Below are positions 13,622 to 29,228 of a stretch of 33,477 bases of DNA, piece after piece. A program made the translations under genes and the position numbers. Location of the stretch: the IMG/VR virus record IMGVR_UViG_3300029193_000102, positions 1 to 33,477 of that record. One strand, written 5' to 3'. The DNA comes from a virus (taxonomy: Duplodnaviria; Heunggongvirae; Uroviricota; Caudoviricetes). The notes beneath the pieces are model-generated. The model saw only the letters and a list, made by a program, of their open reading frames with translations, searched no databases and was not told the DNA's origin. The stretch's first letter is position 1, and each line of letters opens with the position of its first letter.

Positions 13622-13691
13622 GAGACCAGGCGAGGGGGAAATCCCTCGCCACCTCTGATGAGTCAGGCATCCTCAACGCACCCGCACTTAA

Positions 13692-13717: not shown

Positions 13718-13788
13718 CTGGCATTCTGGTTTACAATTCGCACGTCAGCCTGAACACCTGACACCTGCTGCGCCAGCAGAGAAAACAG

Positions 13789-14061: not shown

Positions 14062-14062
14062 C

Positions 14063-15121: not shown

Positions 15122-15487
15122 ATGACCGAACGCATAGAATTTGTTTTGCCTTACCCGCCGACGGTGAACACTTACTGGCGACGCCGTGGCAGCACATATT
15201 TTATCTCGGAGGAGGGAAAGCGTTATCGCCGGGCTGTGGCGCTTATTGTTCGCCAGCAGCGGCTGAAATTAAGCCTGTCCGGAAGGCTGGCGATAAAGGT
15301 GATTGCAGAGCCACCGGATAAGCGTCGTCGCGACCTGGACAACATTCTGAAAGCACCGCTGGATGCGCTGACGCATGCGGGAGTGCTCATTGATGACGAG
15401 CAGTTTGATGAAATCAATATTGTACGTGGTCAGCCAGTATCTGGTGGACGGCTGGGTGTGAAGATTTACAAAATTGAGAGTGAGTGA
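15122..15487 (+). CDS. rusA: Holliday junction resolvase RusA
   Basis: 121 aa; matches recalled RusA motifs LPYPPTVNTYWRRRG and DKRRRDLDNILKAPLDALTHAGVLIDD. Confidence 0.85.
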   Translation: MTERIEFVLPYPPTVNTYWRRRGSTYFISEEGKRYRRAVALIVRQQRLKLSLSGRLAIKVIAEPPDKRRRDLDNILKAPLDALTHAGVLIDDEQFDEINIVRGQPVSGGRLGVKIYKIESE

Positions 15488-16050
15488 GCGTAAATATGAT
15501 ATATCCGGAAATTACAGGCAAAAGCGGCGAGCATTTGCGTCTAAAAACGCTGGAAGCAGTCTGGATCCAGGGGAAATTACGGATGTGGGGGCGGTGGTCG
15601 TATATTGGCGGCGGTAAGACGGGAAATATGTTCAACCAATTACTGACCTCTAAAAAGCTGACAAAAACGGCAATTAACGAGGCGCTCCGGAGGATGAAAA
15701 AAGCTGGTCTGGACAAACCTGAACTTGAGGCTTTTTTGCGGGATATGATCAACGGCAATCAAAAAAGCTGGCTGGCACATTGTACCGATTCAGAGGCGTT
15801 AATAATCGACAGGGTTATTGGTGAAGTCCTGGCAGGCTATCCCGGGCTGCTCAATGTCCTGAGTCAGCGTTATGTGGGGCGGGGGATGACTAAGCGCAAA
15901 ATGGCTGAACTGCTGAATGATGCACACCCGGAATGGAGTTTAAGAACCTGTGAAAGACGCATTGAGCATTGGCTAAAGGTGGCAGAATTTATTTTGTACA
16001 AACCAATGGTTATGGCTTTTGGTATAGAGAAAAAAGTTATTGCTTTTTGA
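15484..16050 (+). CDS. Putative late-gene antiterminator (Q-like), assigned mainly by position
   Basis: 188 aa; lies between rusA and a strong terminator that precedes the late genes; alternative start ATG 15496. Confidence 0.5.
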   Translation: MSVNMIYPEITGKSGEHLRLKTLEAVWIQGKLRMWGRWSYIGGGKTGNMFNQLLTSKKLTKTAINEALRRMKKAGLDKPELEAFLRDMINGNQKSWLAHCTDSEALIIDRVIGEVLAGYPGLLNVLSQRYVGRGMTKRKMAELLNDAHPEWSLRTCERRIEHWLKVAEFILYKPMVMAFGIEKKVIAF

Positions 16051-16127
16051 CGTAAAAACTGCTTCAATTCCGGTACGCTTCGCAAAGCTGTACCACGAGG
16101 CGAATAGCAGACATGGACATTTGAAAG

Positions 16128-16151
16128 AGCCCGCTTTTTGCGGGTTTTTTT
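16128..16151 (+). terminator. Rho-independent terminator downstream of the Q-like gene (tR'-like)
   Basis: CCCGC-TTTTT-GCGGG followed by TTTTTTT. Confidence 0.6.
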
Positions 16152-16274
16152 ATGCCTGAAAAACGGCACAGAACATTAAACGCGCTGGTGGTTGCGAATA
16201 CCGGTCTTTCAGCTTGCTGGCTTTTCCGACAAGAGTTATTGGTATGTTACGTTAACCAGAAAAGGGAAAAAGAC

Positions 16275-16472
16275 ATGCTAAAACAGCAGGATATGACCGA
16301 AACCGCCAGAGTGGTGTTTAATGAGTTAAGCGTCACCGAACCGGCGACAGTCGGGGAGATTGCACAGAATACTTACCTTTCACGCGAACGCTGCCAGTTA
16401 ATACTGACCCAGCTTGTTATGGCGGGTCTGGCAGACTATCAGTTTGGTTGTTACAGACACCTTCAGTCCTGA
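16275..16472 (+). CDS. Small winged-helix-like protein (65 aa)
   Basis: ATG 16275 with AAAGGGAAAAAG upstream; TVGEIAQNTYLSRERCQLILTQLVMAGLADY; stop codon sits inside a terminator hairpin. Confidence 0.4.
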   Translation: MLKQQDMTETARVVFNELSVTEPATVGEIAQNTYLSRERCQLILTQLVMAGLADYQFGCYRHLQS

Positions 16473-16486
16473 AGGCTTTTTTATTT
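16460..16486 (+). terminator. Rho-independent terminator
   Basis: CCTTCAG-TC-CTGAAGG followed by CTTTTTTATTT. Confidence 0.5.
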
Positions 16487-16804
16487 GTGGTAAATTGGCG
16501 GCTGGTGGGTGTGGTGGTTGTTGCTTTCCCGTTGCTGAAAAAGAAAACGCCAGACTGTTAGCCGGGTATCAGTTATCTGGAGAAATTTTTAAATACCTCA
16601 CAATTCAGGCGGTTGACTGTTGTCTGGTTTGCGGGGAGTTTGTTAAAAGAAACTGGCATGGTGAATCCCCCTGTGCGGAGGGGCAATCAGCAACTGGTGT
16701 TTTGTCACCGACCCTTATCCTTTCTGTGCGGGTTCAGGTGCTGATACTGAACTCACCGGGAGGCACCCGGCATCATGTGCATGATGATACAGATACGCGG
16801 CTTT

Positions 16805-16830
16805 AGCCCCTCTCCGGAGGGGCTTTCTTG
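16805..16830 (+). terminator. Rho-independent terminator (plus strand)
   Basis: AGCCCCTC-TCCG-GAGGGGCT followed by TTCTTG. Confidence 0.45.
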
Positions 16831-16835
16831 TGGGC

Positions 16836-16861
16836 AAAAAAAAGCCCGAGTGGGTTCGGGC
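16836..16861 (-). terminator. Rho-independent terminator (minus strand), convergent with the previous one
   Basis: A8 run then GCCCGA-GTGGGT-TCGGGC on the plus strand, i.e. hairpin plus U-tract on the minus strand. Confidence 0.4.
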
Positions 16862-17043
16862 AACAGCATGAGATATACATTTTTATAATCGAATGGATTT
16901 TAACCAGAATTCATAAGGCTGCGCAACTGCGCGGTCTTTTTCGAATTGCGGGCTGTCGTCTCTCTTCTGCCATTGTCCTGTAACTTCCGGACTTCAGCCT
17001 GCTCCTTATCTGACTCACAATATTATCCCGGCCGGGAGGATTC

Positions 17044-19014
17044 ATGGCATTTAAACACTACGATGTGGTCAGGGCGGCATCGCCGTCAGACCTTGCGGAT
17101 GCGCTTGCTCAAAAAATTCGTGAAGGATGGCAACCATACGGCGGGCCGTTTTCTTCGTACACGGATGATGGCGCAGCACTTATTCAGGCGATTGTCGCAG
17201 AAGGTAATGTCACCACACCTGTGGTGGTGAAGCCGTCGGATGGAGAAGGCGCAGTTATCAGCACCACCAGCAACCCGGAGTATTACTTTGTTGTTGCCCT
17301 GGCCGGGCAGTCAAACGGTATGGCGTATGGTGAAGGGCTTCCGCTGCCGGAGACATATGACCGTCCGGACCCGCGTATTAAACAGCTGGCGCGTCGCAGC
17401 ACTGTCACGCCGGGTGGTGCGTCCTGTAACTACAATGACATTATTCCTGCGGACCACTGCCTGCATGATGTTCAGGATTTGAGTAAGTTTTCACACCCGA
17501 AAGCCAGCGCAGCTCAGTATGGATGCGTGGGGCAGGGATTACATATCGCGAAGAAATTGTTGCCGTTTATTCCGGCGAATGCCGGTATTCTTCTGGTTCC
17601 GTGCTGCCGTGGGGGTTCTGCATTTTTGGCGGGCGATGAAGGTACCTTCAGCGAATCCACCGGCGCAAGCGAGACCTCGGCACGCTGGGGTGTAGATAAG
17701 CCACTGTACAAGGACCTGCTTACCCGTACTCAGGCCGCACTGAAGGCCAACCCTAAAAATATTCTGCTTGCAGTGGTCTGGATGCAGGGCGAGTTTGATT
17801 TGAAACAGGGTGCATACGCCACTCAGCCGGGGCTGTTTGATTCCATGGTGGAAAAATATCGTTCTGACCTGTCGGAATTCGGAGGTCAGTGTCTCGGGGG
17901 CTCTCCGTCATCAGTTCCCTGGATTTGTGGCGACACGACCTACTACTGGAAGCAGACTTATTCTTCGCAATACGATGCGGTGTATGGTGCATACAAGACG
18001 AAATCCGCAAAAAAAATCTTCTTTGTGCCGTTTATGACGGATGAAAACGGGCGAAATGTGGGTACCAACGAGCCGTCAGAAGATCCGGATGTTGCGGATA
18101 TTGGGTATTACGGAGCCGGTGGTCGAACGGACGCCAAAACCTGGACGACGGCTGACCGTAAAACGCATTTTGGATCATGGGCACGTCGTGGGATTATTTC
18201 CGACCGTCTGGCAACGGCGATTCTTGTGCATGCCGGGAGAACCGCTGAATTCATTACCGGAAAACAGCCTGATACGGTGAAGCCCACCGGACCTTCCGGT
18301 GAAGGTACGGAGAGAGAGCCGGAAGGTCCGGTCAGTAACCGAACCCTGATGAGTCTGCTGGCGTCCGGCGAAGACCTGGCATCACAGGGCTGGCGCTATT
18401 ATCACAAACCGGCGAGCGGAGACAATGTTAACAAAAACATTGCTGAAGCGGTGGTCAGTGATGCGGGGGCTACGGGAGGTAAGGCCCTGCAACTGAATAA
18501 ACCGGAAAACCACATCTGGTTTCTGGAGCATGATGCAGCCGGGCAGGGGGCAGAGTTGCTGAAGAAAGGAGGACGTGTGAGCGTACGGTTTAAGTTGCCG
18601 GGTTCACTGGTGCCGAATCAGTTTGCCCTGGGCATTTACTGGCAGTTGTCGTCCCTGCCGGAGGGAGTGACGCTGGCAGAGGAAGGCAACGACATGCTGA
18701 TGTCCTTCTTCCTGCAGACGGATGCGACGAACCTGAACGCGATGCACCACAAGAAGCCGAATGCGAAGCTGGAAACGTTCGGGGTCTTTGATAACGGATG
18801 GCACACACTGGCTTTTGAGTTTGCCGGAAACAACAGCATTCAGGTGACGCCGGTACTGGATGAGAAACGGGGGACGCCGTTCACACTGGTGAAATCTCCG
18901 GCATCAGGGGCGGTGGACAAACTGCAACTGACAGGCATATCAAAGGCGGCGACATATACGCTGCTGATTGACAGTGTGAAGGTGGAAGTGAACAACGCGG
19001 ACATCGCGGCATGA
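17044..19014 (+). CDS. nanS: Prophage sialate O-acetylesterase (NanS-p type; DUF1737 N-terminus plus SGNH/SASA esterase domain)
   Basis: 656 aa; GGAGG SD; N-terminus MAFKHYDVVRAASPSDLADALAQKIREGWQPYGG; esterase motif ALAGQSNG; position between Q and lysis genes as in Stx phages. Confidence 0.8.
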   Translation: MAFKHYDVVRAASPSDLADALAQKIREGWQPYGGPFSSYTDDGAALIQAIVAEGNVTTPVVVKPSDGEGAVISTTSNPEYYFVVALAGQSNGMAYGEGLPLPETYDRPDPRIKQLARRSTVTPGGASCNYNDIIPADHCLHDVQDLSKFSHPKASAAQYGCVGQGLHIAKKLLPFIPANAGILLVPCCRGGSAFLAGDEGTFSESTGASETSARWGVDKPLYKDLLTRTQAALKANPKNILLAVVWMQGEFDLKQGAYATQPGLFDSMVEKYRSDLSEFGGQCLGGSPSSVPWICGDTTYYWKQTYSSQYDAVYGAYKTKSAKKIFFVPFMTDENGRNVGTNEPSEDPDVADIGYYGAGGRTDAKTWTTADRKTHFGSWARRGIISDRLATAILVHAGRTAEFITGKQPDTVKPTGPSGEGTEREPEGPVSNRTLMSLLASGEDLASQGWRYYHKPASGDNVNKNIAEAVVSDAGATGGKALQLNKPENHIWFLEHDAAGQGAELLKKGGRVSVRFKLPGSLVPNQFALGIYWQLSSLPEGVTLAEEGNDMLMSFFLQTDATNLNAMHHKKPNAKLETFGVFDNGWHTLAFEFAGNNSIQVTPVLDEKRGTPFTLVKSPASGAVDKLQLTGISKAATYTLLIDSVKVEVNNADIAA

Positions 19015-19165
19015 TAAAAAAAGGCCGCCAGCAATGAAGGAAAGGGATGAACTGTGTCCACTACATGAATGCTGGCGGCTGGTAAAACGACCACGATGAC
19101 ACCGAAGTTTGCGATATTTTTCTACAAAAATAAGTAAATCATGTCAACTATCACGGTGAGAAACC

Positions 19166-19348
19166 ATGACATTTCTGAACCAGTTAATGCTGTACTTCTG
19201 TACGGCAGTCTGTGTTATGTATCTTCTTTCGGGTGGGTACAGGGCAGTGCGCGATTTCTGGCGCAGGCAGATTGATAAAAGGGCCGCTGAGAGAATCAGC
19301 GCCAGTCAGTCAGCCGGAAGCAAACCCGAAGATCCGCTCATTCCGTAG
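19166..19348 (+). CDS. Small membrane protein, 60 aa
   Basis: ORF track; one hydrophobic helix LMLYFCTAVCVMYLLSG. Confidence 0.4.
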   Translation: MTFLNQLMLYFCTAVCVMYLLSGGYRAVRDFWRRQIDKRAAERISASQSAGSKPEDPLIP

Positions 19349-19385
19349 TCACTTTCTTGACAACACCTTTCAACGAGAAAATCCC

Positions 19386-19631
19386 ATGTCAGAAATCACA
19401 TCCCTGGTCACTGCTGAGGCAGTGAAGGAAGTCCTGCGCTCTGAAGAAGTCCGGAGTGCACTGAAACAGAAACTCCGCCAGAACCTTGAGGCGCGTCTTG
19501 ATGCAGAAGTGGATGCCATTCTGGATGAGCTGCTGGGCGTACCAGCGGTTCCGGAGCCGGAAGGTATCGCGGGTGACGGGAGTGCTTCAGATGGCGGTGA
19601 ACCCACACCTGACAGCGACATGATGATGTAA
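19386..19631 (+). CDS. Hypothetical acidic protein, 81 aa
   Basis: ATG 19386 with GAGAAAA upstream; ORF track's longer version (19212) lacks an RBS. Confidence 0.45.
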
Positions 19632-19707
19632 GCCTGCGCAAGGGACCATCGGTGTGTGCCGGTGGTCTTTATATTGTTGTGAGCTTCCGGATAACGGGAG
19701 ACGGGGT

Positions 19708-19923
19708 ATGTACCAGATGGAAAAAATCACAACAGGTGTGTCATACACCACGTCAGCGGTGGGAACGGGCTACTGGTTCCTGCAGTTGCTGGACAGGGTT
19801 TCCCCGTCTCAGTGGGCGGCAATAGGCGTGCTGGGGAGTCTGCTGTTTGGGCTGCTGACGTACCTGACTAACCTGTATTTCAAAATCAGAGAGGACCGGC
19901 GTAAGGCGGCGCGGGGAGAGTAA
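19708..19923 (+). CDS. Holin with dual-start motif (MYQM)
   Basis: 71 aa; two Met codons at 19708 and 19717; TM segments; resembles recalled DLP12 EssD-type holins (..[40 protein letters not shown]). Confidence 0.8.
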
Positions 19924-19927
19924 AGCG

Positions 19928-20278
19928 ATGAAGAAAAAATACGAACTGGTTGTTAAAGGGATAAATAATTACCCGGATAAGATTACTGTTACTGTGGTAC
20001 TGGAAATTGGTGGGTATCCGTCACTGTTGTTGCCAGATGTGGCGATTAGTCTTGACCGTACTGAAGGTGCCACGCTGGAGTTTTACGAAGCTGAGGCGAA
20101 AAAGCAGGCGAAGCAGTTTTTCATGGATGTTGCTGCCGGGTTATGTGAAGGGAACGAACCGTTGCCGGAAAAGCGCCCCGTAATTTTAGAGGCGCAGAAT
20201 GTGTTGATAACCTACAAAGGAAAGCTACCGGGAAGAATTACTTGTTCTCTGAAGACTCCACCGGAATCACAACCTTAA
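19928..20278 (+). CDS. Hypothetical 116-aa protein inserted between holin and endolysin
   Basis: GGAGAG SD; no signal peptide or TM segment. Confidence 0.5.
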   Translation: MKKKYELVVKGINNYPDKITVTVVLEIGGYPSLLLPDVAISLDRTEGATLEFYEAEAKKQAKQFFMDVAAGLCEGNEPLPEKRPVILEAQNVLITYKGKLPGRITCSLKTPPESQP

Positions 20279-20341
20279 TTCACTGACCGGAACAGATAAA
20301 CCTGTCCGTGGGCAGAAACCGATAAATCCTGATAAATATCC

Positions 20342-20875
20342 ATGAACACCAAAATCAAATACGGCCTGTCGGCTGCCGTTCTGGCGCTGATTGCCGCTGG
20401 TGCGCCTGCGCCTGACATTCTCGACCAGTTTCTGGATGAAAAGGAAGGTAACCACACCACGGCATACCGTGATGGTGCGGGGATCTGGACCATCTGCCGT
20501 GGAGCCACCCGGGTGGATGGTAAGCCTGTTATTCCTGGCATGAAGCTGTCGAAGGAAAAATGCGACCGGGTTAACGCCATTGAGCGTGATAAGGCGCTGG
20601 CATGGGTGGAGAAAAACATCAGAGTGCCACTGACCGAACCCCAGAAAGCGGGGATCGCGTCATTCTGTCCGTACAACATTGGTCCCGGTAAGTGTTTCCC
20701 GTCGACGTTTTACAGACGAATTAATGCAGGTGATCGAAAAGGTGCCTGCGAAGCGATTCGCTGGTGGATTAAGGACGGTGGCAGAGACTGCCGTATTCGC
20801 TCAAATAACTGTTACGGTCAGGTATCCCGTCGTGACCAGGAGAGCGCGCTGGCGTGCTGGGGTATCGACAGATAA
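20342..20875 (+). CDS. Endolysin, lysozyme-type with N-terminal SAR (signal-anchor-release) domain
   Basis: 177 aa; N-terminal YGLSAAVLALIAAGA; catalytic E..D..T region EGNHTTAYRDGAGIWTICRGAT. Confidence 0.85.
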   Translation: MNTKIKYGLSAAVLALIAAGAPAPDILDQFLDEKEGNHTTAYRDGAGIWTICRGATRVDGKPVIPGMKLSKEKCDRVNAIERDKALAWVEKNIRVPLTEPQKAGIASFCPYNIGPGKCFPSTFYRRINAGDRKGACEAIRWWIKDGGRDCRIRSNNCYGQVSRRDQESALACWGIDR

Positions 20876-20967
20876 GCAGAATATTTTGCTGAAAAATAAG
20901 GCATGGCCACGCGGGCGGATAACACGAAATCCTGCGAACTGGCGAAACGTAAGTGAATAAAAGTAAA

Positions 20968-21005
20968 AACCCCGTTTGTTGGCACCAAGCGGGGTTTTGT
21001 GTTTC
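20968..21005 (+). terminator. Terminator-like hairpin plus T-tract after the endolysin gene
   Basis: AACCCCG...CGGGGTT stem followed by TTTTGTGTTTC. Confidence 0.4.
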
Positions 21006-21031
21006 TGACCTTGAGTAAGGCAAGGGAGAAC

Positions 21032-21214
21032 ATGGCGAAGTATAAACGAATTCTGTTGAGGTTGACTATGAAAAACGGCCTTGAACTGAAAGCGCCTGTA
21101 ACTGATGACATCAGCAGAGCACTGGCTTTTGCCATTAAGTGGGTGGCGGTCGGTGTTGCTGTGTCCCCGATGCTGTATGGGCTGGCAAAACTGGTCATTG
21201 CGTTGAAATCATGA
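21032..21214 (+). CDS. Hypothetical 60-aa protein with C-terminal hydrophobic helix
   Basis: ATG 21032 with AGGGAGAA upstream. Confidence 0.4.
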
Positions 21215-21228
21215 AGGGAGGATTAAGC

Positions 21229-21360
21229 ATGCCAGACAAACTCATAACGCTGGCGAAGATCCTCTGTGTAATTGTCGGCATTTCATTTTCACTAATGCTG
21301 GTTGCTCTTTTTCTTTCCATGGCCTGGATGATGTTGTCTTCGTCGGGGCTGCTGGGGTGA
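21229..21360 (+). CDS. Hypothetical 43-aa membrane peptide
   Basis: ATG 21229 with AAGGGAGGA 7 nt upstream; highly hydrophobic. Confidence 0.3.
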
Positions 21361-21830
21361 ACATAAACCGAATGCTTTCCGCGTTTATCGTTATTCTGCT
21401 GGTGGCCTGTGGTGCGCTGTGGATGGCAACAGACCATTACCGTGATAACGCGATTACCTACAAAGCGCAGCGCGATAACAAAGCCAGAGAACTGAAGCTG
21501 GCGAACGCAACCATTACTGATATGCAGGTGCGCCAGCGCGATGTTGCTGCGCTCGATGCAAAATACTCGAGGGAATTAGCCGATGCGAGAGCTGAAAATG
21601 AAACTCTTCGCGCTGATGTTGCCGCTGGTCGTAAGCGCCTGCGGATCAACGCCACCTGCCCCGGTACCGTGCGTGAAGCCACCGGCACCTCCGGCGTGGA
21701 TAATGCAACCGGCCCCCGACTGGCAGACACCGCTGAACGGGATTATTTCATCCTCAGAGAACGGTTGATGACAATGCAGAAGCAGGTGGAAGGGGCGCAG
21801 GAATATATCCGCACTCAGTGTATTAACTAG
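21357..21830 (+). CDS. Rz: Rz i-spanin
   Basis: Strong similarity to recalled lambda Rz ([25 protein letters not shown]...DVAALDAKY...[27 protein letters not shown]); alternative start ATG 21372. Confidence 0.8.
21583..21768 (+). CDS. Rz1: Rz1 o-spanin lipoprotein, embedded in Rz in the +1 frame
   Basis: MLPLVVSAC lipobox; Pro-rich [27 protein letters not shown] matches recalled lambda Rz1. Confidence 0.75.
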
Positions 21831-21853
21831 TATTTTTGTTATCCGGAGAATGC

Positions 21854-22078
21854 ATGAAGAAATTACTGGTAACCGTAAAGCCTCTTCAGGGAACAATTCT
21901 GTTCCGTATTTTGCAGCGTGGTCGTGTTCTTGTTGAAGGTTCGTTCAGTGGTAAATGTATGCAATTACACTCCCGGACCTTTCAGGTGAATGCCACGAAT
22001 GAAGAGCTAACCGTTGAGTGTACGATGAATACCGCTAAATGCCGCATGGTATCCGCTGCATTACAGCGAGTGTGTTGA
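21854..22078 (+). CDS. Hypothetical 74-aa protein
   Basis: ATG 21854 with GGAGAA upstream. Confidence 0.35.
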   Translation: MKKLLVTVKPLQGTILFRILQRGRVLVEGSFSGKCMQLHSRTFQVNATNEELTVECTMNTAKCRMVSAALQRVC

Positions 22079-22536: not shown

Positions 22537-23013
22537 ATGGACGGCGAGCTGAAAAATATGAAGTTAAATATTAATCAACTGGCAGCCCTTTCAGGTCTGC
22601 ACCGGCAGACTGTTGCCGCCAGAATGGCGGATGTTCCTCTTGCACCAGGCAGTAATGAAAAGAAAAAACTGTATCTCCTGACGGATTTGATTATTTCGTT
22701 GCTGGAAAAACCACCGACTTCCGAAGATGAAGAGATGAACCCACATGATCGGAAGGCATGGTATCAGTCCGAGCGCGAGCGTCTTAAATTTCAGCATGAA
22801 ACTGTTCAGCTTGTGCCTGTCAGTGATGTCAGGCGGTCCTTTTCTGTCGTGGTGAAAGCGATAGTTCAGGTACTGGAAACCTGGCCTGACCGGCTGGAAA
22901 GGGACAGAGGTTGGACCGCATCACAACTGAATGAAGTACAGATTGTGGTTGATGAGATCCGCGACACACTGGAAAAGGCAGTCATTGACTGTTGTGATGA
23001 GGCCGATATGTGA
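22537..23013 (+). CDS. Terminase small subunit
   Basis: 158 aa; GGAGGGA SD; N-terminal HTH NINQLAALSGLHRQTVAARM; immediately upstream of the large terminase gene. Confidence 0.7.
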   Translation: MDGELKNMKLNINQLAALSGLHRQTVAARMADVPLAPGSNEKKKLYLLTDLIISLLEKPPTSEDEEMNPHDRKAWYQSERERLKFQHETVQLVPVSDVRRSFSVVVKAIVQVLETWPDRLERDRGWTASQLNEVQIVVDEIRDTLEKAVIDCCDEADM

Positions 23014-25133
23014 ATCAGGTGAACGAGAGCCATAGCCGCGCATCCGATATCTGGCGCGAAGTGGCCTCGCTGTTTCGCCCGCCCAGCCGGTTACCAGTAG
23101 CGGAAGCCATCAGGCGTTATATGCGGGTACCACGGGGAGCCAATACTTCCGGTCCGTGGGAGTCATCGCTGACGCCCTATATGATTGACCCCATTAATAC
23201 ATTATCAGCCCGTGAATATGACGCGGTGGTGTTTGTGGGACCTGCGCGAACCGGGAAAACCGAAGGGCTGATTGACGGCTGGATTGTGTACGGCATCATC
23301 TGTGATCCGGCGGATATGCTGGTGGTGCAAATGACCGAGACGAAGGCGCGGGAACACTCCAGAACGCGTCTTTCCAGAACGTTTCGTCACAGCCCGGAGG
23401 TCAGTAAGCGTCTCAGTCCTTCCCGTAATGACAACAACGTCCACGATAAAATGTTTCTTGACGGCTCCTTCCTGAAGATTGGCTGGCCGTCGATCACTGT
23501 ATTTTCTTCTTCGGATTACCGTCGTGTGGCGCTGACGGATTATGACCGTTTCCCTGAAAACGTGGACGGGGAAGGGGATGCCTTCACCCTGGCATCAAAG
23601 CGTACCACCACCTTTATGTCCTCGGGGATGACCCTGGTCGAGAGTTCGCCGGGGCGGGATATCACTGACACCAAATGGCGCTGTGGCGGCGCACATGAGG
23701 CACCGCCAACAACGGGGATCCTGTCACTGTATAACCGGGGAGACCGCCGCCGGTGGTACTGGCCGTGTCCGCACTGCGGGGAATATTTTCAGCCGGTGAT
23801 GGATAACATGACCGGATACCGGAATAACCCGGATTTTGTGGCTGCCGGTCAGGCTGCCCGTCTGATGTGTCCGCATTGTCGCGGGCTGATTGCCCCTGAG
23901 CAGAAACGCGAACTGAATAACAAAGGGATCTGGCTTCGTGAAGGTGAACGGGCGGTGGCGGACGGCAGTATCACCGGAACACCACGAAATTCCAGGATTG
24001 CGTCATTCTGGATGGAGGGGCCGGCTGCGGCGTTTCAGACCTGGGAACAACTGATTTTTAAACTGCTGGCGGCAGAAGAAGAGTATGAGCGAACCGGCAG
24101 TGAAGAGACCCTGAAAGCGGTGGTGAACACCGATATCGGACGCCCCTATCTGCCCCGTTCAGCCACGGAACAGCGTAAAAGTGAACTGCTTGAACAGCGT
24201 GCCGAGCCGTTTCCCCGGCGATCTGTGCCGGATGGTGTGCGTTTTATTGAGGCAACGGTTGACGTACAGGGCGGTAAAAATCGCCGTTTTGTTGTGCAGA
24301 TCACCGGATACGGAGAGCAGGGGGAACGCTGGATTGTTGATCGCTATAACATCCGGCATTCACTGCGCTGCAGTCCCAACGGTGAAAGTCTGCCGGTTGA
24401 TCCGGCGGCATATCCGGAGGACTGGGATTTGTTGCTGACGGATGTGTTCCATAAAACATGGCCGCTGGCTTCTGATCCGGATGTGCGCATGCGTCTGATG
24501 GCCATGGCGGTGGATACGGGAGGGGAAGCCGGGGTGACAGATAACGCCTATCGTTTCTGGCGTCGTTGCCGGAGTGACGGACTGGGCAACAGGGTGTTTC
24601 TGTTCAAGGGGGATGGACTTCGCCGTGACAGGCTGATTAACCGTACCTTCCCGGATAATACCGGCAGAAGTGCCCGCCGTGCCAGAGCCAGTGGCGATGT
24701 CGCGCTGTGGCTGGTTCAGACGGATGCGTTTAAGGACCGTGTAAATAATGCCCTGTGGCGTGACACACCAGGGCCGAACTATATCCACTTTCCCGACTGG
24801 CTGGGGCGATGGTTTTACGATGAGCTGACCTATGAAGAGCGCGGCAGTGACGGAAAATGGCGAAAACCGGGCAGGGGAGCTAACGAGGCGTTTGACCTGC
24901 TGGTTTATGCGGATGCGCTTGCCGTTCTGCATGGTTACGAAAAGATCCGCTGGCCCTCCGCACCGGACTGGGCACAGCGGGAAACGTGGCTCGTCTTCCC
25001 GCAGGAGCGTTCTGGTGAAACGGTATCCCCGGAACTGACGGCCGGGGCAGAAAAACGCCGTCGCCGGAAGAAAAAACTACGGACGGAGCGTGCGGAAGAT
25101 AATCCATGGATAACATCAGGAGGCTGGTTGTGA
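23010..25133 (+). CDS. A: Terminase large subunit (lambda gpA family)
   Basis: 707 aa; ATPase motif VGPARTGKTE, CPHCGE zinc motif and nuclease-region DTGG as in lambda gpA; GTG start overlapping the small-subunit stop. Confidence 0.9.
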   Translation: MNQVNESHSRASDIWREVASLFRPPSRLPVAEAIRRYMRVPRGANTSGPWESSLTPYMIDPINTLSAREYDAVVFVGPARTGKTEGLIDGWIVYGIICDPADMLVVQMTETKAREHSRTRLSRTFRHSPEVSKRLSPSRNDNNVHDKMFLDGSFLKIGWPSITVFSSSDYRRVALTDYDRFPENVDGEGDAFTLASKRTTTFMSSGMTLVESSPGRDITDTKWRCGGAHEAPPTTGILSLYNRGDRRRWYWPCPHCGEYFQPVMDNMTGYRNNPDFVAAGQAARLMCPHCRGLIAPEQKRELNNKGIWLREGERAVADGSITGTPRNSRIASFWMEGPAAAFQTWEQLIFKLLAAEEEYERTGSEETLKAVVNTDIGRPYLPRSATEQRKSELLEQRAEPFPRRSVPDGVRFIEATVDVQGGKNRRFVVQITGYGEQGERWIVDRYNIRHSLRCSPNGESLPVDPAAYPEDWDLLLTDVFHKTWPLASDPDVRMRLMAMAVDTGGEAGVTDNAYRFWRRCRSDGLGNRVFLFKGDGLRRDRLINRTFPDNTGRSARRARASGDVALWLVQTDAFKDRVNNALWRDTPGPNYIHFPDWLGRWFYDELTYEERGSDGKWRKPGRGANEAFDLLVYADALAVLHGYEKIRWPSAPDWAQRETWLVFPQERSGETVSPELTAGAEKRRRRKKKLRTERAEDNPWITSGGWL

Positions 25134-25342
25134 GCACAGAAGAAGCCAGAGAAATGATACAGCGGTACCGTGAAGCGGAAATGGCCGTACTGGAGGGGAA
25201 GTCTGTCACCTTCAACGGACAGCAACTGACGCTGGAAAGCCTTTCTCAGATCCGCGCCGGACGTCAGGAGTGGGAACGCAGGCTTGCCGCGATGGTGAGC
25301 CGCAGGCGGGGAAAACCAGGATTTAAACTGGCGAGGTTTTAA
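25130..25342 (+). CDS. W: Head-tail joining protein W-like
   Basis: ~70 aa from GTG 25130 (AGGAGG 6 nt upstream; alternative ATG 25106); C-terminus RRRGKPGF resembles lambda gpW. Confidence 0.6.
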   Translation: MSTEEAREMIQRYREAEMAVLEGKSVTFNGQQLTLESLSQIRAGRQEWERRLAAMVSRRRGKPGFKLARF

Positions 25343-26844
25343 TGGCAATTATTGATGATGTGATAGGCGTGTTTTCCCCCGGCTGGAAAGCAGCCAGACT
25401 GCGTTCAAGGGCGTTAATCATGGCCTATGAGGCGGTGAAACCGACCCGGACACATAAAGCCCGGCGGGAAAATCGCTCTGCTGATCAGCTCAGTAAATAC
25501 GGTGCGGTTTCCCTGCGGGAGCAGGCCCGTTTTCTGGATATCAATCATGACCTGGTGATTGGTGTGTTTGACAAGCTGGAAGAGCGGGTGATTGGTGCCA
25601 GGGGAATTATTGTGGAGCCTCAGCCATTACGAAAAAACGGGGAAATGGCGGCAGAGCTGGCTGCGGATATCCGCCGGTTGTGGGCTGAGTGGTCCGTGAG
25701 TCCGGATGTGACAGGGCAGTATACCCGTCCCGTGCTTGAACGTTTACTGCTGCGGACCTGGCTGCGGGATGGTGAAGTGTTTGCGCAGATGGTCAGTGGT
25801 GCGGGAAACGGTCTGGAACGGACGGCGGGAGTGCCATTCTGGCTTGAGGCGATGGAGCCGGATTTTGTTCCCATGCGCACTGATGAATCCGCCGGACTGA
25901 ATCAGGGGGTTTTTCTTGATGAGTGGGGAAGACCGAAAAAATATCTGGTTTATAAAAATTATCCGGTCAGCGGCCGGCAGAGTGATACGAAAGAAATCGC
26001 TGCCGGAAAAATGATCCACCTGAAGTTCACTCGTCGTCTGCATCAGACGCGAGGCTCATCCATGTTATCGGGGGTGCTGATACGGATCAGTGCCCTTAAG
26101 GAGTATGAGGATGCGGAACTCACTGCGGCGCGTATTGCCGCGGCGCTGGGACTGTATATCCGTAAAGGTGACGGGCAGGACTATGAAGAGCCGGGGATCA
26201 AAGAAACCGACCGGGAAGTCCATATCACACCGGGTATTATTTATGACGATTTGCGCAAGGGCGAGGATATCGGCATGGTCAAATCAGACCGTCCCAATCC
26301 CAACCTTGAAACTTTCCGCAACGGCCAGTTGCGTGCAGTGGCAGCGGGCAGTCGTCTGAGTTTTTCCAGTGCGGCGCGTAACTATAACGGCACCTACAGT
26401 GCCCAGCGGCAGGAGCTGGTCGAGTCCACGGATGGTTACCTGATCCTGCAGGACTGTTTTATTGGCGCGGTAACCCGTCCGGTGTACCGGACATGGCTGA
26501 ATATGGTGGTTGCGGCAGGTCTGCTGAAAATTCCGGCGGATGTGGAGATGAAAACGCTATATAACGCGACGTATTCCGGTCCGGTGATGCCGTGGATCGA
26601 CCCGGTTAAGGAAGCTGAAGCCTGGAGAATTCAGATCCGGGGTGGTGCAGCGACAGAATCTGACTGGGTGCGTGCCGGCGGGCGCAATCCGGATGAGGTC
26701 AAACGTCGCCGCAAGGCTGAAATTGATGAAAACAGCAGACTGGGGCTGGTCTTTGATACTGACCCCGTCAACGACAAAGGAGGCAACAGTGCCGGAACTG
26801 AACAACAGCGTCAGCAGGCCACCGACAGCCAGCATGAAGAATAA
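25342..26844 (+). CDS. B: Portal protein (lambda gpB family)
   Basis: 500 aa, placed after W and before the protease as in lambda. Confidence 0.85.
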   Translation: MAIIDDVIGVFSPGWKAARLRSRALIMAYEAVKPTRTHKARRENRSADQLSKYGAVSLREQARFLDINHDLVIGVFDKLEERVIGARGIIVEPQPLRKNGEMAAELAADIRRLWAEWSVSPDVTGQYTRPVLERLLLRTWLRDGEVFAQMVSGAGNGLERTAGVPFWLEAMEPDFVPMRTDESAGLNQGVFLDEWGRPKKYLVYKNYPVSGRQSDTKEIAAGKMIHLKFTRRLHQTRGSSMLSGVLIRISALKEYEDAELTAARIAAALGLYIRKGDGQDYEEPGIKETDREVHITPGIIYDDLRKGEDIGMVKSDRPNPNLETFRNGQLRAVAAGSRLSFSSAARNYNGTYSAQRQELVESTDGYLILQDCFIGAVTRPVYRTWLNMVVAAGLLKIPADVEMKTLYNATYSGPVMPWIDPVKEAEAWRIQIRGGAATESDWVRAGGRNPDEVKRRRKAEIDENSRLGLVFDTDPVNDKGGNSAGTEQQRQQATDSQHEE

Positions 26845-28813
26845 ATCCTGGTTCAGGATGCAGGCGGGTGGTCAGGGTGAGGCGGATATTTATATTTATG
26901 ACGAGATTGGTTTCTGGGGAGTTACCGCGAAGCAGTTTGTCAGCGATATGAATGCCCTGGGTGATATCACCCACATTAATCTCCACATCAACTCACCGGG
27001 TGGCGATGTCTTTGAAGGCATCGCCATTTTTAATGCCCTGAAAAATCACGGTGCGGCCATTACCGTGTATGTGGATGGCGTTGCCGCCTCGATGGCATCC
27101 CTGATTGCGATGGCCGGTGACACGGTCATTATGCCGGAAAATGCCTTCATGATGATCCATAAACCCTGGGGGATCAGCGGTGGTGATGCGGAGAAAATGC
27201 GCACTTATGCCGAACGTCTGGACAAACTTGAGTCGGTTATGGTGCCGGTATATGCGCAGAAAACCGGAAAAACTACCGATGAAATTGCCGCCATGCTGGC
27301 GGATGAGACCTGGATGTCCGGTGCCGAGTGTCTGGCACACGGATTTGCAGACCAGGTGACGCCAGCCGTTAAGGCAATGGCATGTATTCAGTCAAAACGT
27401 ACAGAGGAATTTAAAAAGATGCCGGAATCCATCCGAAATATGATCACGCAGCCATACAACAGTGCCCCGCGTGATACCACAGTGACAATCCCTGCACCGG
27501 CGGTAACAGAACCATCACCGGTACCGGCAGTGTCTGATGAGGCGACCATTCGCGCCCGCGTTATGGCAGAACAGAAAGCCCGCATGTCAGGCATTAACGA
27601 TCTGTTTGCCATGTTCGGCGGTCGCTATCAGACGCTTCAGGCACAGTGCGTGGCTGATCCTGACTGTTCGCTGGAAATGGCCCGTGAACGTCTGCTGAAT
27701 GAAATGGGCAAGGAGTCCTCGCCGACCAACAAAAATACACCGGCTCATATTTATGCCGGAAACGGCAATTTTGTGGGGGACGGGATCCGCCAGGCGATGC
27801 TGGCCCGTGCCGGATTTGAAAATGTCGAGAAGGATAACGCCTATAACGGGATGACCCTGCGTGAATGGGCTCGCATGTCACTGACGGAGCGCGGTATTGG
27901 GGTGGCCAGTTATAACCCCATGCAGATGGTCGGGCTGGCGCTGACGCACAGCACCTCTGATTTTGGCAATATTCTGCTGGATGTGTCGAACAAGGGGCTG
28001 ATCCAGGGCTGGGAGGAATCAGAAGAAACCTTCCAGAAGTGGACCCGTAAGGGACGCCTGTCAGACTTCAAAACAGCGTATCGCGTGGGGATGGGCGGTT
28101 TTGGTTCTCTGCGCCAGGTTCGTGAGGGGGCGGAGTATAAATACATCACCACCTCAGATCGCAAGGAGACCATTGCACTGGCCACTTACGGGGAGATTTT
28201 CTCCATCACCCGCCAGGCCATTATCAATGATGATCTGAATATGCTGGTGGACGTGCCGATGAAGATGGGGCGTGCGGCGAAGGCAACGATTGGTGACCTG
28301 GTTTACAAGGTGCTGACGGATAACCCGAAACTGTCAGACGGTAAGGCGCTGTTCCATGCCGATCACAAAAATATTGCCACCGGTGGGATTTCCGTTTCCG
28401 GACTGGATGCGGCCCGTCAGATGATGCGCCTGCAGAAAGAAGGCGATCGCGCCCTGAATATCCGTCCGGCCTTTATGCTGGTACCGGTGGCACTGGAGAC
28501 GGTGGCGAACCAGACCATCAAATCGGCCAGTGTGAAAGGGGCGGATGCAAACGCCGGTGTCATTAACCCCATCCAGAACTTTGCTGAGGTGATTGCAGAA
28601 GCGCGTCTTGATGCGGCAGATCCGAAAACCTGGTATCTGGCGGCGGCACAGGGCACTGACACCATTGAAGTGGCCTGGCTGGATGGTGTGGACACTCCAT
28701 ACATTGATCAGCAGGAAGGTTTCACCACTGACGGCATTGCCACAAAAATCCGTATTGATGCCGGAGTGGCACCACTTGACTGGCGCGGGCTGGTGCGTTC
28801 GTCGGTGGCCTGA
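26834..28813 (+). CDS. Prohead protease (ClpP/S49-like) fused to a putative major capsid domain
   Basis: ~660 aa from ATG 26834 (track ORF begins 26642 inside the portal gene); protease region INSPGGDVFEGIAIFNAL...ASMASLIAMAGD; C-terminal ~330 aa of capsid-like character; no separate major capsid gene follows. Confidence 0.7.
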   Translation: MKNKSWFRMQAGGQGEADIYIYDEIGFWGVTAKQFVSDMNALGDITHINLHINSPGGDVFEGIAIFNALKNHGAAITVYVDGVAASMASLIAMAGDTVIMPENAFMMIHKPWGISGGDAEKMRTYAERLDKLESVMVPVYAQKTGKTTDEIAAMLADETWMSGAECLAHGFADQVTPAVKAMACIQSKRTEEFKKMPESIRNMITQPYNSAPRDTTVTIPAPAVTEPSPVPAVSDEATIRARVMAEQKARMSGINDLFAMFGGRYQTLQAQCVADPDCSLEMARERLLNEMGKESSPTNKNTPAHIYAGNGNFVGDGIRQAMLARAGFENVEKDNAYNGMTLREWARMSLTERGIGVASYNPMQMVGLALTHSTSDFGNILLDVSNKGLIQGWEESEETFQKWTRKGRLSDFKTAYRVGMGGFGSLRQVREGAEYKYITTSDRKETIALATYGEIFSITRQAIINDDLNMLVDVPMKMGRAAKATIGDLVYKVLTDNPKLSDGKALFHADHKNIATGGISVSGLDAARQMMRLQKEGDRALNIRPAFMLVPVALETVANQTIKSASVKGADANAGVINPIQNFAEVIAEARLDAADPKTWYLAAAQGTDTIEVAWLDGVDTPYIDQQEGFTTDGIATKIRIDAGVAPLDWRGLVRSSVA

Positions 28814-28835
28814 TAACCGAGTTATCACAATCACT

Positions 28836-28854
28836 GCCCGAAAGGGCTTTTTTT
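28836..28854 (+). terminator. Terminator-like hairpin plus T7 after the capsid gene
   Basis: GCCC-GAAA-GGGC followed by TTTTTTT; preceded by palindrome TGATAACCGAGTTATCA (28811..28827). Confidence 0.4.
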
Positions 28855-28901
28855 ATGCCTGAAAAACAGCCCCACAGGGGGCTGTCCGGAGAAACAGCAT
28901 T

Positions 28902-29228
28902 ATGGCGAAAAATTTTGTACAGGACGGTACCACCATTGAACTGGTGAATGCCGGAGATCAGACCATCCTGAGCGGTGCTGCGGTGGTGGTCGGCAGTATG
29001 GTGGCCGTGGCCATTACCGATATTCCTGCCGGTGATGCCGGTGACGGTTTTGCCGAAGGCGTGTTCCTTCTGCCCAAACAGTCTGCTGACGACATTCAGT
29101 CCGGCGCGGTGGTTTATCTGAAGGACGGGGTTGTGCAGCTGGCTGCAGAGGGTGCGGTGGCCGCGGGGGTAGCCTGGGAAAATGCTCCTGCAAACAGCGC
29201 CACTGTGGCGGTAAAAATCAATGTCTGA
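28902..29228 (+). CDS. Putative head decoration protein
   Basis: 108 aa Gly/Ala/Val-rich protein directly after the capsid gene; lambda D-equivalent position. Confidence 0.5.
   Translation: MAKNFVQDGTTIELVNAGDQTILSGAAVVVGSMVAVAITDIPAGDAGDGFAEGVFLLPKQSADDIQSGAVVYLKDGVVQLAAEGAVAAGVAWENAPANSATVAVKINV

What the first reader, a model, noticed from the sequence alone, without database searches (positions are those of the whole stretch)
17044..19014. NanS-p-type sialate O-acetylesterase moron without accompanying stx genes
The 656-aa protein has the DUF1737-type N-terminus and an SGNH/SASA esterase core (ALAGQSNG), and sits in the late operon between Q and the holin. This family is best known from Stx-converting and related prophages of enterohaemorrhagic E. 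coli, where it deacetylates 9-O-acetyl sialic acids. Here it is present on a Stx-phage-like scaffold that lacks stx.
Basis: partly seen in the sequence, partly recalled or inferred. Interest (0 to 1): 0.45.

Follow-up and report, generated by a model that had tools for sequence, protein, structure and literature searches.

The report
Prophage sialate esterase with head-matched anchor
This is an intact copy of a well-known E. coli prophage enzyme that removes acetyl groups from gut-mucus sialic acids; having no Shiga-toxin gene next to it is the normal state, but its small N-terminal domain is swapped to match the phage's head type, which suggests the enzyme rides on the virus particle rather than being simple bacterial cargo.

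Summary
ORF 17044-19014 (+) encodes an intact 656-aa protein with DUF1737, a SASA/SGNH esterase and DUF6645. It matches the solved structures of NanS and of the NanS-p C-terminal domain. It lies between a Q-like antiterminator and the holin of an E. coli prophage at mtfA/tRNA-Ser.

It is a NanS-p family member. The catalytic Gln89-Ser90 and His375 are present.

Absence of stx is real but ordinary. 125 bp replace the 2.9-kb methylase-tRNA-stxAB block of a related Stx2a phage. Only 23 of 104 sampled loci carry stx. The exact protein is already in NCBI, and the literature describes nanS-p in non-Stx prophages.

The "moron" label is doubtful. A 2026 preprint shows that the phi24B orthologue decorates the capsid through DUF1737. 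Across 52 typed loci, the DUF1737 variant tracks head-gene type (AMI 0.66). The esterase, the C-terminal domain and the whole lysis cassette lie in between and do not (AMI about 0). Relatives with a 100% identical esterase but another head differ only in nt 50-150 of the gene.

The gene most likely encodes a late-expressed, virion-displayed mucin sialate de-O-acetylase. The gene itself is already known, so interest is modest.

The parts
17044..19014 (+). nanS-p coding sequence (656 aa plus stop), intact
   Evidence: PHROG phrog_143 matches full length (E=0). The exact sequence is in NCBI as 'DUF6645 domain-containing protein [E. coli]'.
17044..17205 (+). DUF1737 domain (residues 1-54), variant D1. 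It is the proposed capsid-docking module matched to this phage's head type.
   Evidence: Pfam PF08410. It is 98% identical to the Stx2_95 domain and 61-65% to phi24B gp84. D1 occurs only with the window-type head (12 of 12).
17094..17193 (+). Exchanged cassette inside DUF1737 (about nt 50-150 of the gene, residues ~18-50). It includes the segment equivalent to the phi24B capsid-anchoring loop, where Tyr42 of phi24B is Asp42 here.
   Evidence: DNA identity to L007 falls to 52-62% only in these bins and is 96-100% on both sides. Per-position diversity is highest at residues 34-46.
17206..17268 (+). Linker 1 (residues 55-75). It lacks the SISSP motif proposed as a processing site in phi24B.
   Evidence: Alignment; preprint text.
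17269..18225 (+). SGNH type II / SASA esterase domain (residues 76-394). Gln89-Ser90 lie at 17308-17313 and His375 at 18166-18168.
   Evidence: 3PT5 alignment, E=1.5e-118. G88, Q89, S90, N91, R372 and H375 are invariant in 122 homologues. The dyad is documented in PMC9063846. Codons were checked.
18226..18441 (+). Linker 2 (residues 395-466), variable, with a conserved P-S-G
18442..19011 (+). C-terminal lectin-like jelly-roll domain (DUF6645). Three of the four proposed sugar-binding positions stay aromatic (F527, Y532, F556). The fourth, F611 of phi24B, falls in a gap.
   Evidence: 6YP6 hit, E=1.8e-60. Pfam PF20350. Residue mapping. The aromatic positions are listed in PMC10462455.
15484..16050 (+). 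Q-like late antiterminator (DUF1133 / Phage_antitermQ), presumed controller of late transcription through the esterase gene
16275..16472 (+). 65-aa post-Q ORF, 95% identical to the one that follows Q in the Stx2a phage Stx2_95
16473..16597 (.). Empty cargo site. These ~125 bp replace the ~2.9-kb methylase, three tRNAs and stx2AB block of Stx2_95.
16627..16835 (+). STnc100 / PasD-like sRNA, ending in the hairpin at 16805-16824
   Evidence: Rfam RF02076, 130.6 bits. The sRNA-esterase arrangement is described in bioRxiv 10.64898/2026.05.13.724894.
16839..16891 (-). AsxR-like anti-sRNA with its own terminator
   Evidence: Rfam RF02703, 63 bits, exactly at the gathering score. Terminator.
16919..17043 (+). 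Conserved 5' leader of nanS-p: hairpin CTGCGCAACTGCGCGG plus a T-run (16919-16941) and the Shine-Dalgarno GGGAGG (17034-17039)
   Evidence: It is nearly invariant between the window, Stx2_95 and phi24B.
19166..21830 (+). Lysis cassette (DUF1378, DUF826, holin, DUF1327, lysozyme, Rz). It lies between the esterase gene and the head genes and served as the linkage control.
   Evidence: These gene families have AMI with head type of -0.02 to 0.08.
22537..29228 (+). Head module of type W, to which the D1 DUF1737 variant is matched:
- TerS, 22537-23013
- TerL, 23010-25133
- portal, 25342-26844
- protease-major capsid fusion, ending at 28813 (the ORF opens at 26642, but the true start is probably later)
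- head decoration protein, 28902-29228
   Evidence: PHROGs. The same head module is present in all other D1 loci.

Best explanation
The ORF encodes an intact three-module protein of the NanS-p family.

Module 2 (residues 76-394) is an SGNH type II 9-O-acetyl-sialate esterase. It works with a Ser90-His375 dyad and a Gln89/Gly oxyanion hole, with no catalytic Asp. It converts Neu5,9Ac2 and related O-acetylated sialic acids of mucins to Neu5Ac. Family membership and conserved residues are shown here. Activity is inferred from characterised homologues.

Module 3 (residues 467-656) is a lectin-like jelly roll. It probably holds the enzyme on glycans (inferred).

Module 1 (DUF1737, residues 1-54) is an exchangeable docking cassette matched to the phage's own head type. 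The enzyme is therefore most likely displayed on, or delivered with, the capsid, as shown by cryo-EM for phi24B gp84. This is inferred here from co-variation.

The gene has no promoter of its own that I could detect. It should be transcribed from pR' under Q antitermination together with the lysis and head genes (inferred). The protein would therefore appear during lytic growth. It has no signal peptide and would leave the cell on lysis.

Two benefits would follow. Phage particles could bind or penetrate O-acetylated mucus. The surviving lysogen population would gain usable sialic acid.

stx is absent simply because the cargo site upstream is empty, which is the usual state in E. coli.

Sub-confidences:
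- NanS-p family esterase: about 0.97
- late, Q-dependent expression: about 0.8
- virion association through DUF1737 in this phage: about 0.55-0.6
For: Family and chemistry:
- Pfam architecture and a full-length match to phrog_143.
- 3PT5 E=1.5e-118 and 6YP6 E=1.8e-60.
- The esterase domain is 72% identical to phi24B gp84.
- G88, Q89, S90, N91, R372 and H375 are invariant in 122 homologues.
- The dyad and the Gln oxyanion residue are documented for NanS (PMC9063846).
- NanS-p alleles from Stx and non-Stx prophages are active and support growth on Neu5,9Ac2 (PMC8065619; PMC10462455).

Late expression:
- The gene lies between the Q-like gene and the holin.
- No promoter-like site lies on the + strand in 15900-19700.
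- The leader and Shine-Dalgarno are conserved with Stx phages.
- nanS-p is induced by mitomycin C and norfloxacin in STEC.

Virion role:
- The phi24B gp84 DUF1737 forms hexamers plugged into capsid hexons (preprint).
- In 52 loci with typed head modules, D1 goes with the W head in 12 of 12, D2 with the phi24B head in 7 of 8, and D0 with lambda-like or X heads in 30 of 31.
- AMI with head type is 0.66 for DUF1737, 0.02 for the esterase and 0.12 for the C-terminal domain.
- After dereplication to 23 combinations, AMI is 0.51 with permutation p<=2e-4. The other domains give p>=0.076.
- Seven lysis-gene families lying between the gene and the head genes have AMI of -0.02 to 0.08. The TerL positive control gives 0.75.
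- The nucleotide-bin profile peaks only at nt 0-300 of the gene (0.55).
- Cassette swap: relatives with a 100% identical esterase and a 98-99% identical C-terminal domain but a different head have only 66% identical DUF1737. DNA divergence is confined to nt 50-150.
- A diverged W head (L082) carries a diverged D1-like domain.

No signal peptide or transmembrane segment is present.
Against: - Direct virion evidence exists only for phi24B, a short-tailed phage with an unrelated head, and comes from a preprint.
- The phi24B anchoring residue Tyr42 is Asp42 here. The proposed SISSP processing motif is absent.
- The mapping is not one-to-one. Variant D0 occurs with two apparently unrelated head types (A and X) and does not split between them.
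- Two loci are mismatched: L112 and L132.
- The W head already encodes a separate head-decoration protein (phrog_122).
- The sample is E. coli prophage predictions from IMG/VR. Relatedness is only crudely controlled by dereplication.
- No independent cross-genus sample exists.
- The single-sequence AlphaFold model of residues 1-75 was of low confidence and did not reproduce the reported fold.
- Esterase activity and expression were not measured.
Confidence: 0.6

Rival explanations
1. Pure lysogenic-conversion cargo. The esterase is a soluble public-good enzyme released on lysis of a few induced cells. It lets the lysogen population feed on O-acetylated sialic acids. DUF1737 would have no virion role in this phage.
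For: Growth on Neu5,9Ac2 depends on nanS-p alleles in EDL933 and O104:H4. The gene lies in the classic cargo site 3' of pR', where stx and the anti-sRNAs also sit. The Tyr42 tooth and the SSP motif of phi24B are not conserved. The W head has its own decoration protein.
Against: This reading does not explain why a ~100-nt cassette in DUF1737 tracks head type. The esterase, the C-terminal domain, seven lysis genes and the upstream region all do not. No promoter of its own was found. The phi24B orthologue is abundant in virions. The nutritional benefit is compatible with either model.
Confidence: 0.28
2. Infection-cycle enzyme aimed at the bacterial surface. The esterase, whether on the capsid or free, would remove O-acetyl groups from O-antigen or from O-acetylated polysialic (K1-type) capsule. 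This would aid adsorption or prevent re-adsorption to lysed cells.
For: The idea is raised as an open possibility in the review PMC8065619. Late expression and a carbohydrate-binding C-terminal domain fit it. The closest relatives are prophages of extra-intestinal or commensal strains such as ATCC 25922.
Against: There is no experimental support. The demonstrated substrates are free and mucin-bound O-acetyl sialic acids. The orthologue is a frameshifted pseudogene in ATCC 25922, so it is dispensable for prophage maintenance there. The C-terminal domain type does not co-vary with anything I could test.
Confidence: 0.08
3. Decaying or inactive remnant of a former Stx phage, with no current function.
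For: Some orthologues are frameshifted (ATCC 25922) or interrupted by IS elements. The stx site is empty.
Against: The ORF is full length, with all catalytic and block residues intact and a strong Shine-Dalgarno. It is 99% identical to copies in other genomes that carry the same head module (L004 and L036). The surrounding lysis and head genes are intact. No stx remnant exists.
Confidence: 0.03

Closest known systems
phi24B gp84 (vb_24B_21), the NanS-p of Stx2 phage phi24B. Its C-terminal domain is solved (6YP6), and DUF1737 is seen on the capsid by cryo-EM (preprint 10.64898/2026.04.10.717836).
   Same: The three-module architecture is the same. The position is the same, downstream of Q and the cargo site and upstream of DUF1378, DUF826 and the holin. 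The 5' leader is conserved. The esterase is 72% identical with identical catalytic residues.
   Different: DUF1737 is only 61-65% identical, with a different anchoring loop (Tyr42 becomes Asp42). Linker 1 is unrelated and has no SISSP. The C-terminal domain is 55-59% identical, with Y510F and Y540F changes and no counterpart of F611. The host phage has a long-tailed, lambda-like virion with a protease-capsid fusion head, not the T=9 podovirus head.
933W NanS-p (Z1466 / L0105) and the other EDL933 and O104:H4 NanS-p alleles, which are biochemically characterised
   Same: Same family, same genomic slot and same domain order. Several of those alleles also sit in non-Stx prophages and are active.
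   Different: The combination of domain variants differs. The window has a D1-type DUF1737 like Stx2_95-type phages, with an esterase and C-terminal domain of another lineage. That lineage is 96-100% identical to copies in ATCC 25922-like prophages. I made no direct comparison with each EDL933 allele.
Chromosomal NanS (YjhS), PDB 3PT5
   Same: Same SGNH type II esterase core (E=1.5e-118). The Gln-Ser and His dyad is the same, and the catalytic Asp is likewise missing.
   Different: NanS is the esterase domain alone (326 aa). It belongs to the chromosomal nan regulon. It has no DUF1737 or lectin-like domain and is not phage-borne.
Capsid-displayed glycan-binding decoration proteins such as T4 Hoc (functional analogy only, from my own knowledge and as discussed in the phi24B preprint)
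   Same: Both are non-essential proteins attached at hexon centres that mediate interaction of the virion with mucus.
   Different: Hoc is a monomeric Ig-like binder without enzymatic activity. The present protein would be a hexamer-forming anchor carrying an enzyme and a lectin domain. There is no sequence relationship.

Membership tests
NanS-p (prophage-borne sialate O-acetylesterase) | Three-domain order: DUF1737, then the SASA esterase, then the C-terminal jelly roll (DUF6645) | tested here: met
   Pfam hits at residues 3-53, 86-277 and 506-619. 6YP6 matches residues 467-651.
NanS-p (prophage-borne sialate O-acetylesterase) | NanS-type SGNH blocks: GQSN with the nucleophile Ser and the oxyanion Gln, and a block with the catalytic His (R-x-x-H) | tested here: met
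   Q89-S90-N91 and R372-K-T-H375 are present. They align to Ser19 and His301 of 3PT5 and are invariant in 122 homologues.
NanS-p (prophage-borne sialate O-acetylesterase) | Location in the late region of a lambdoid prophage, downstream of Q and upstream of holin S | tested here: met
   The Q-like gene is at 15484-16050 and the holin at 19654-19923. The prophage sits at mtfA/tRNA-Ser.
NanS-p (prophage-borne sialate O-acetylesterase) | Hydrolysis of Neu5,9Ac2 and of O-acetylated mucin sialic acids | not testable with these tools
   This needs an enzyme assay. It is inferred from 72% identity of the esterase domain to characterised homologues.
NanS-p (prophage-borne sialate O-acetylesterase) | Induction- and Q-dependent expression | not testable with these tools
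   Only indirect evidence is available. No promoter-like site lies on the + strand. The leader is conserved with Stx phages. Published data show induction in STEC.
Canonical SGNH/GDSL hydrolase | Ser-His-Asp triad with the Asp three residues before the His (DxxH) | tested here: not met
   Arg372 occupies that position (RKTH). The same deviation is documented for NanS, which works as a dyad (PMC9063846). So this does not argue against activity.
DUF1737 capsid-decorating protein (phi24B gp84 type) | DUF1737 domain at the N-terminus | tested here: met
   PF08410, E=1e-11.
DUF1737 capsid-decorating protein (phi24B gp84 type) | Anchoring loop with the Tyr42 'tooth' | tested here: not met
   Asp42 aligns with Tyr42, and the loop at residues 34-46 is of a different type. 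This may reflect a different capsid partner.
DUF1737 capsid-decorating protein (phi24B gp84 type) | Specific pairing with the phage's own capsid | tested here: met
   This is shown by co-variation only. D1 pairs with the W head in 12 of 12 loci. AMI is 0.66, against about 0 for the intervening genes. The permutation p is <=2e-4. A cassette swap is seen at nt 50-150.
DUF1737 capsid-decorating protein (phi24B gp84 type) | Presence in purified virions or density on hexons | not testable with these tools
   This needs proteomics or cryo-EM of this phage type.
DUF1737 capsid-decorating protein (phi24B gp84 type) | Interdomain processing at SSP-containing linkers | tested here: not met
   Linker 1 is NVTTPVVV and linker 2 has P-T-G-P-S-G, so there is no SSP. 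The motif itself is only a proposal in the preprint.
Moron (autonomously expressed prophage cargo gene) | Own promoter and terminator flanking the gene, with expression from the repressed prophage | tested here: inconclusive
   The consensus scan found no + strand promoter in 15900-19700. Hairpins exist upstream (16805-16824, 16919-16941) and a convergent one lies downstream. A simple scan cannot exclude a weak or non-sigma70 promoter.

The most novel reading that the evidence does not exclude
DUF1737 is an exchangeable, head-type-specific docking cassette. A segment of about 100 nt is swapped by recombination. Through it, most lambdoid E. coli prophages, including long-tailed, non-Stx ones like this, would display a mucin sialate esterase plus lectin on their capsids. 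NanS-p would then be primarily a virion component that adapts phages to the mucus layer, with the nutritional benefit to lysogens a by-product.
Probability: 0.5. Interest if true: 0.55.

Novelty: already known. Interest (0 to 1): 0.3.

Why it matters
As stated, the finding adds nothing new. nanS-p without stx is the common state, and this exact protein is already catalogued.

The follow-up gives a concrete, testable point. The N-terminal domain of this very widespread E. coli prophage protein behaves as a head-matched module. This holds across at least three unrelated head types. It extends a single cryo-EM observation in phi24B to ordinary long-tailed prophages of commensal and pathogenic E. 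coli.

If confirmed, NanS-p would be reclassified from metabolic cargo to a virion-displayed mucus-modifying enzyme. The small cassette could also be used to graft proteins onto specific phage capsids.

Tried and rejected
1. stx remnants. tblastn of Stx2A, Stx2B and the linked methylase against the whole window gave nothing better than E=0.37, so no decayed toxin genes are present.

2. NCBIfam gave no hit for the protein.

3. An independent cross-species sample for the co-variation test. The genome-contig scan returned only 6 loci. Two were full-length copies, in E. albertii and an Escherichia sp.. The test could therefore not be replicated outside E. coli prophages.

4. Splitting variant D0 into subtypes specific for head types A and X. 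Identical N-termini occur with both heads, so this was rejected.

5. AlphaFold2 of residues 1-75 without an alignment. Mean pLDDT was 65. The strand-helix-strand start looked plausible, but the second half was unreliable. It was not used as evidence.

6. The primary papers of Rangarajan 2011, Rangel 2016 and Saile 2016 are not held in the library. Their content is cited only through papers that describe them.

7. Simple physical linkage as the cause of the DUF1737-head association. This was rejected because all intervening genes and domains show AMI of about 0.

8. iraM as part of the locus. It is present in the ATCC 25922 relative but absent from the window.
Full report
**1. Observation**

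The ORF at 17044..19014 (+) exists exactly as described: ATG start, 656 aa. It is preceded by a GGGAGG Shine-Dalgarno at 17034-17039.

Pfam finds three domains:
- DUF1737, residues 3-53
- SASA, residues 86-277
- DUF6645, residues 506-619

PHROG phrog_143 matches full length. NCBIfam has no model for it.

Two solved structures match by sequence:
- 3PT5, chromosomal NanS/YjhS, E=1.5e-118 over residues 76-394
- 6YP6, the NanS-p C-terminal domain, E=1.8e-60 over residues 467-651

The neighbours form a lambdoid late region:
- DUF968
- RusA
- a Q-like protein (DUF1133/Phage_antitermQ, 15484-16050)
- a 65-aa post-Q ORF
- the esterase
- DUF1378
- DUF826
- a P21-type holin
- DUF1327
- lysozyme
- Rz

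Next come the terminase, the portal, a protease-capsid fusion, a head decoration protein and lambda-like tail genes. The element is an E. coli prophage next to mtfA and tRNA-Ser(CGA). The flank is 99.7% identical to E. coli chromosomes.

**2. Is it a NanS-p esterase?**

Yes. Against phi24B gp84 the esterase domain is 72% identical, the C-terminal domain 59% and DUF1737 65%.

The residues that align with Gln18, Ser19 and His301 of NanS are Gln89, Ser90 and His375. G88, Q89, S90, N91, R372 and H375 are invariant in 122 full-length homologues.

NanS is documented to work with a Ser-His dyad, a Gln/Gly oxyanion hole and no catalytic Asp (PMC9063846). The window has Arg372 at the DxxH position, as the family does.

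In the C-terminal domain, three of the four aromatic positions proposed for sugar binding in phi24B stay aromatic (F527, Y532, F556). The fourth falls in a gap.

There is no signal peptide or hydrophobic segment.

**3. Is "without stx" remarkable?**

No. stx is truly absent. tblastn with Stx2A, Stx2B and the linked methylase finds nothing, and there is no tRNA cassette.

Comparison with the Stx2a phage Stx2_95 shows an empty cargo site. The post-Q ORF (16275-16472) is 95% identical. Homology resumes at about 16598 with the stxB-to-nanS-p spacer. About 125 bp stand in for 2.9 kb carrying the methylase, three tRNAs and stx2AB.

This is the usual state:
- In my sample, only 23 of 104 loci with enough upstream sequence carry stxA.
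- A 4-kb query centred on the gene matches 3438 of 5426 complete E. coli genomes, with a median of 2 places and up to 17.
- The closest relatives, at 96%, are in ATCC 25922-type strains, where the gene is frameshifted.
- The exact protein is in NCBI from 15 contigs, in a 90% cluster of 3518 members.
- Active NanS-p alleles in non-Stx prophages are published.
- A 2026 preprint reports that fewer than 3% of chromosomal esterase-PasA loci are adjacent to stx.

The scaffold is Stx-phage-like only from about 16.1 kb onward, where it is about 91% identical to Stx2_95-type phages. The early region is about 94% identical to non-Stx coliphages.

**4. Is it a moron?**

A 2026 preprint on phi24B reports three things:
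- gp84, the NanS-p orthologue, is one of the most abundant virion proteins.
- Its DUF1737 domain forms hexamers seated in the central hexons of the capsid, anchored by a loop with Tyr42.
- The catalytic part is cleaved off later.

This prompted a test of whether DUF1737 is matched to the head in other phages too. Two IMG/VR scans gave 137 loci with up to 10 kb of flank. DUF1737 falls into six or seven variants that differ mostly in residues 19-26 and 34-46, the phi24B anchoring-loop region.

Downstream head modules, typed de novo, fall into four kinds:
- A: lambda-like, with gpA/gpB/gpC-type genes
- W: the window type, with a protease-capsid fusion (phrog_133)
- X: another protease-capsid fusion (phrog_617)
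- P: phi24B

The cross-tabulation is as follows:

| DUF1737 variant | Head type(s) found with it |
|---|---|
| D1 (window) | W, 12 of 12 |
| D2 (phi24B) | P, 7 of 8 |
| D0 | A (22), X (8), W (1) |
| D5 (diverged, D1-like) | a diverged W head, 1 locus |

**5. Control for linkage**

The esterase and C-terminal domains and the whole lysis cassette lie physically between DUF1737 and the head genes. Adjusted mutual information (AMI) with head type is shown below.

| Feature | AMI, all 52 loci | AMI, 23 dereplicated combinations |
|---|---|---|
| DUF1737 | 0.66 | 0.51 (permutation p<=2e-4) |
| Linker 1 | 0.24 | 0.12 |
| Esterase | 0.02 | -0.06 |
| Linker 2 | 0.11 | -0.05 |
| C-terminal domain | 0.12 | -0.04 |

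The other domains give permutation p>=0.076. The families for DUF1378, DUF826, holin, DUF1327, lysozyme, Rz and Rz1 give -0.02 to 0.08. The TerL positive control gives 0.75.

In 300-nt bins, the association peaks only in the first bin of the gene, at 0.55. It is <=0.26 upstream and <=0.11 over the next 2.7 kb.

Pairwise comparison makes the swap explicit:

| Loci compared with the window | Head | DUF1737 | Esterase | C-terminal domain |
|---|---|---|---|---|
| L007, L017 | A | 66% | 100% | 98-99% |
| L016, L038 | X | 66% | 100% | 98% |
| L053, L062 | W (same as window) | 98% | 72-73% | 54-55% |

Against L007, DNA identity drops to 52-62% only at nt 50-150 of the gene.

Simple linkage therefore cannot explain the pattern. 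Selection for compatibility between DUF1737 and the virion module can.

**6. Caveats**

- The mapping is not one-to-one. D0 pairs with two heads and does not subdivide.
- Two loci are mismatched.
- Tyr42 and the proposed SSP processing motif are not conserved here.
- The W head has its own decoration protein.
- The sample consists of E. coli prophages, with only crude dereplication.
- No cross-genus replicate is possible, because the three-domain protein is essentially confined to Escherichia.
- A single-sequence structure prediction of residues 1-75 was uninformative.
- No + strand promoter was detected near the gene, and the 110-nt leader is conserved with Stx phages. The scan is only a consensus match.

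**7. Mechanism proposed**

The gene is transcribed late from pR' under the Q-like antiterminator, together with the lysis and head genes. The protein docks on the phage's own capsid through the D1 DUF1737 cassette, and some may stay free. It is released on lysis.

Its Ser90/His375 esterase removes 7/8/9-O-acetyl groups from mucin sialic acids. The lectin-like C-terminal domain holds it on glycans.

Two benefits follow. Virions can interact with mucus, and sister lysogens gain Neu5Ac.

What is shown and what is inferred:
- Shown here: family membership, intact catalytic residues, genomic position, absence of stx, and the head-matched cassette.
- Inferred: activity, timing of expression and capsid display.

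The rival readings are a soluble public-good moron, a bacterial-surface deacetylase, and a remnant. They are weighed in the rival explanations section.

**8. Verdict**

The gene is an already known kind, and indeed an already catalogued sequence, in an ordinary context. It was not previously reported, as far as the held literature shows (DUF1737 occurs in five papers), that the DUF1737 variant tracks head type. This is a property of the family, not of this window. Interest is 0.3.

Noticed in passing
window 16627-16835 (+): An STnc100 / PasD-like prophage sRNA (Rfam RF02076, 130.6 bits) lies directly upstream of the esterase gene and ends in the 16805-16824 hairpin. A 2026 preprint describes the same sRNA-esterase-holin arrangement.
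   Followed up: partly
window 16839-16891 (-): An AsxR-like anti-sRNA (RF02703) scores 63 bits, exactly at the gathering score. It also scores 43 bits on AgvB. It has its own terminator. AsxR was described as lying antisense and 3' of stx2AB, yet here it sits in a stx-less prophage. A few bases of its variable 5' part differ from the consensus, so its sRNA target may differ.
   Followed up: partly
window 16919-16941 (+): A hairpin CTGCGCAACTGCGCGG followed by a T-run lies about 100 nt upstream of the nanS-p start. It is nearly invariant in the window, Stx2_95 and phi24B. It could be a Q-overridden terminator or a leader structure.
   Followed up: no
window 19015-19079 (- strand reading): A 10-bp GC-rich stem (19024-19033 with 19070-19079) lies just after the nanS-p stop. 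Read on the minus strand, it is followed by U7. Folding gives z=-2.8. It may be a convergent terminator or the 3' end of a minus-strand sRNA of the PasA/PasC type.
   Followed up: partly
window 16825-17042 versus L001 5423-6052: The closest complete-genome relative (ATCC 25922) carries an iraM anti-adapter gene on the minus strand between the STnc100 region and the esterase. The window has 218 bp there instead of 630 bp and no iraM. So this spacer is a second small cargo site.
   Followed up: partly
L001 6054-8016 (ATCC 25922): The orthologous esterase gene of the widely used reference strain ATCC 25922 is annotated as a frameshifted pseudogene.
   Followed up: no
window 5407-5458 (-) and 13296-13621 (+): A DicF sRNA (76.7 bits) lies in the early region. 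A hok/sok-type toxin-antitoxin module (sok 112 bits, with a 70-aa Hok-like ORF at 13409-13621) lies upstream of the DUF968 gene.
   Followed up: no
protein cluster of window 17044-19011: Several partial NanS-p fragments in NCBI (for example 347, 233 and 205 aa) are named 'phage terminase large subunit family protein'. This looks like a propagated annotation error.
   Followed up: no
L112 and L132: Two loci break the DUF1737-head rule: D0 with a W head, and D2 with an X head. They could be recent recombinants, assembly chimeras, or tolerated mismatches in which the enzyme is no longer capsid-bound.
   Followed up: no
window 1000-16100 versus 16100-25900: The prophage is a mosaic. The integrase-to-Q part is about 94% identical to non-Stx coliphages (vB_EcoS-689R5 and relatives). 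The late and head part is about 91% identical to Stx2_95-type Stx2a phages.
   Followed up: partly
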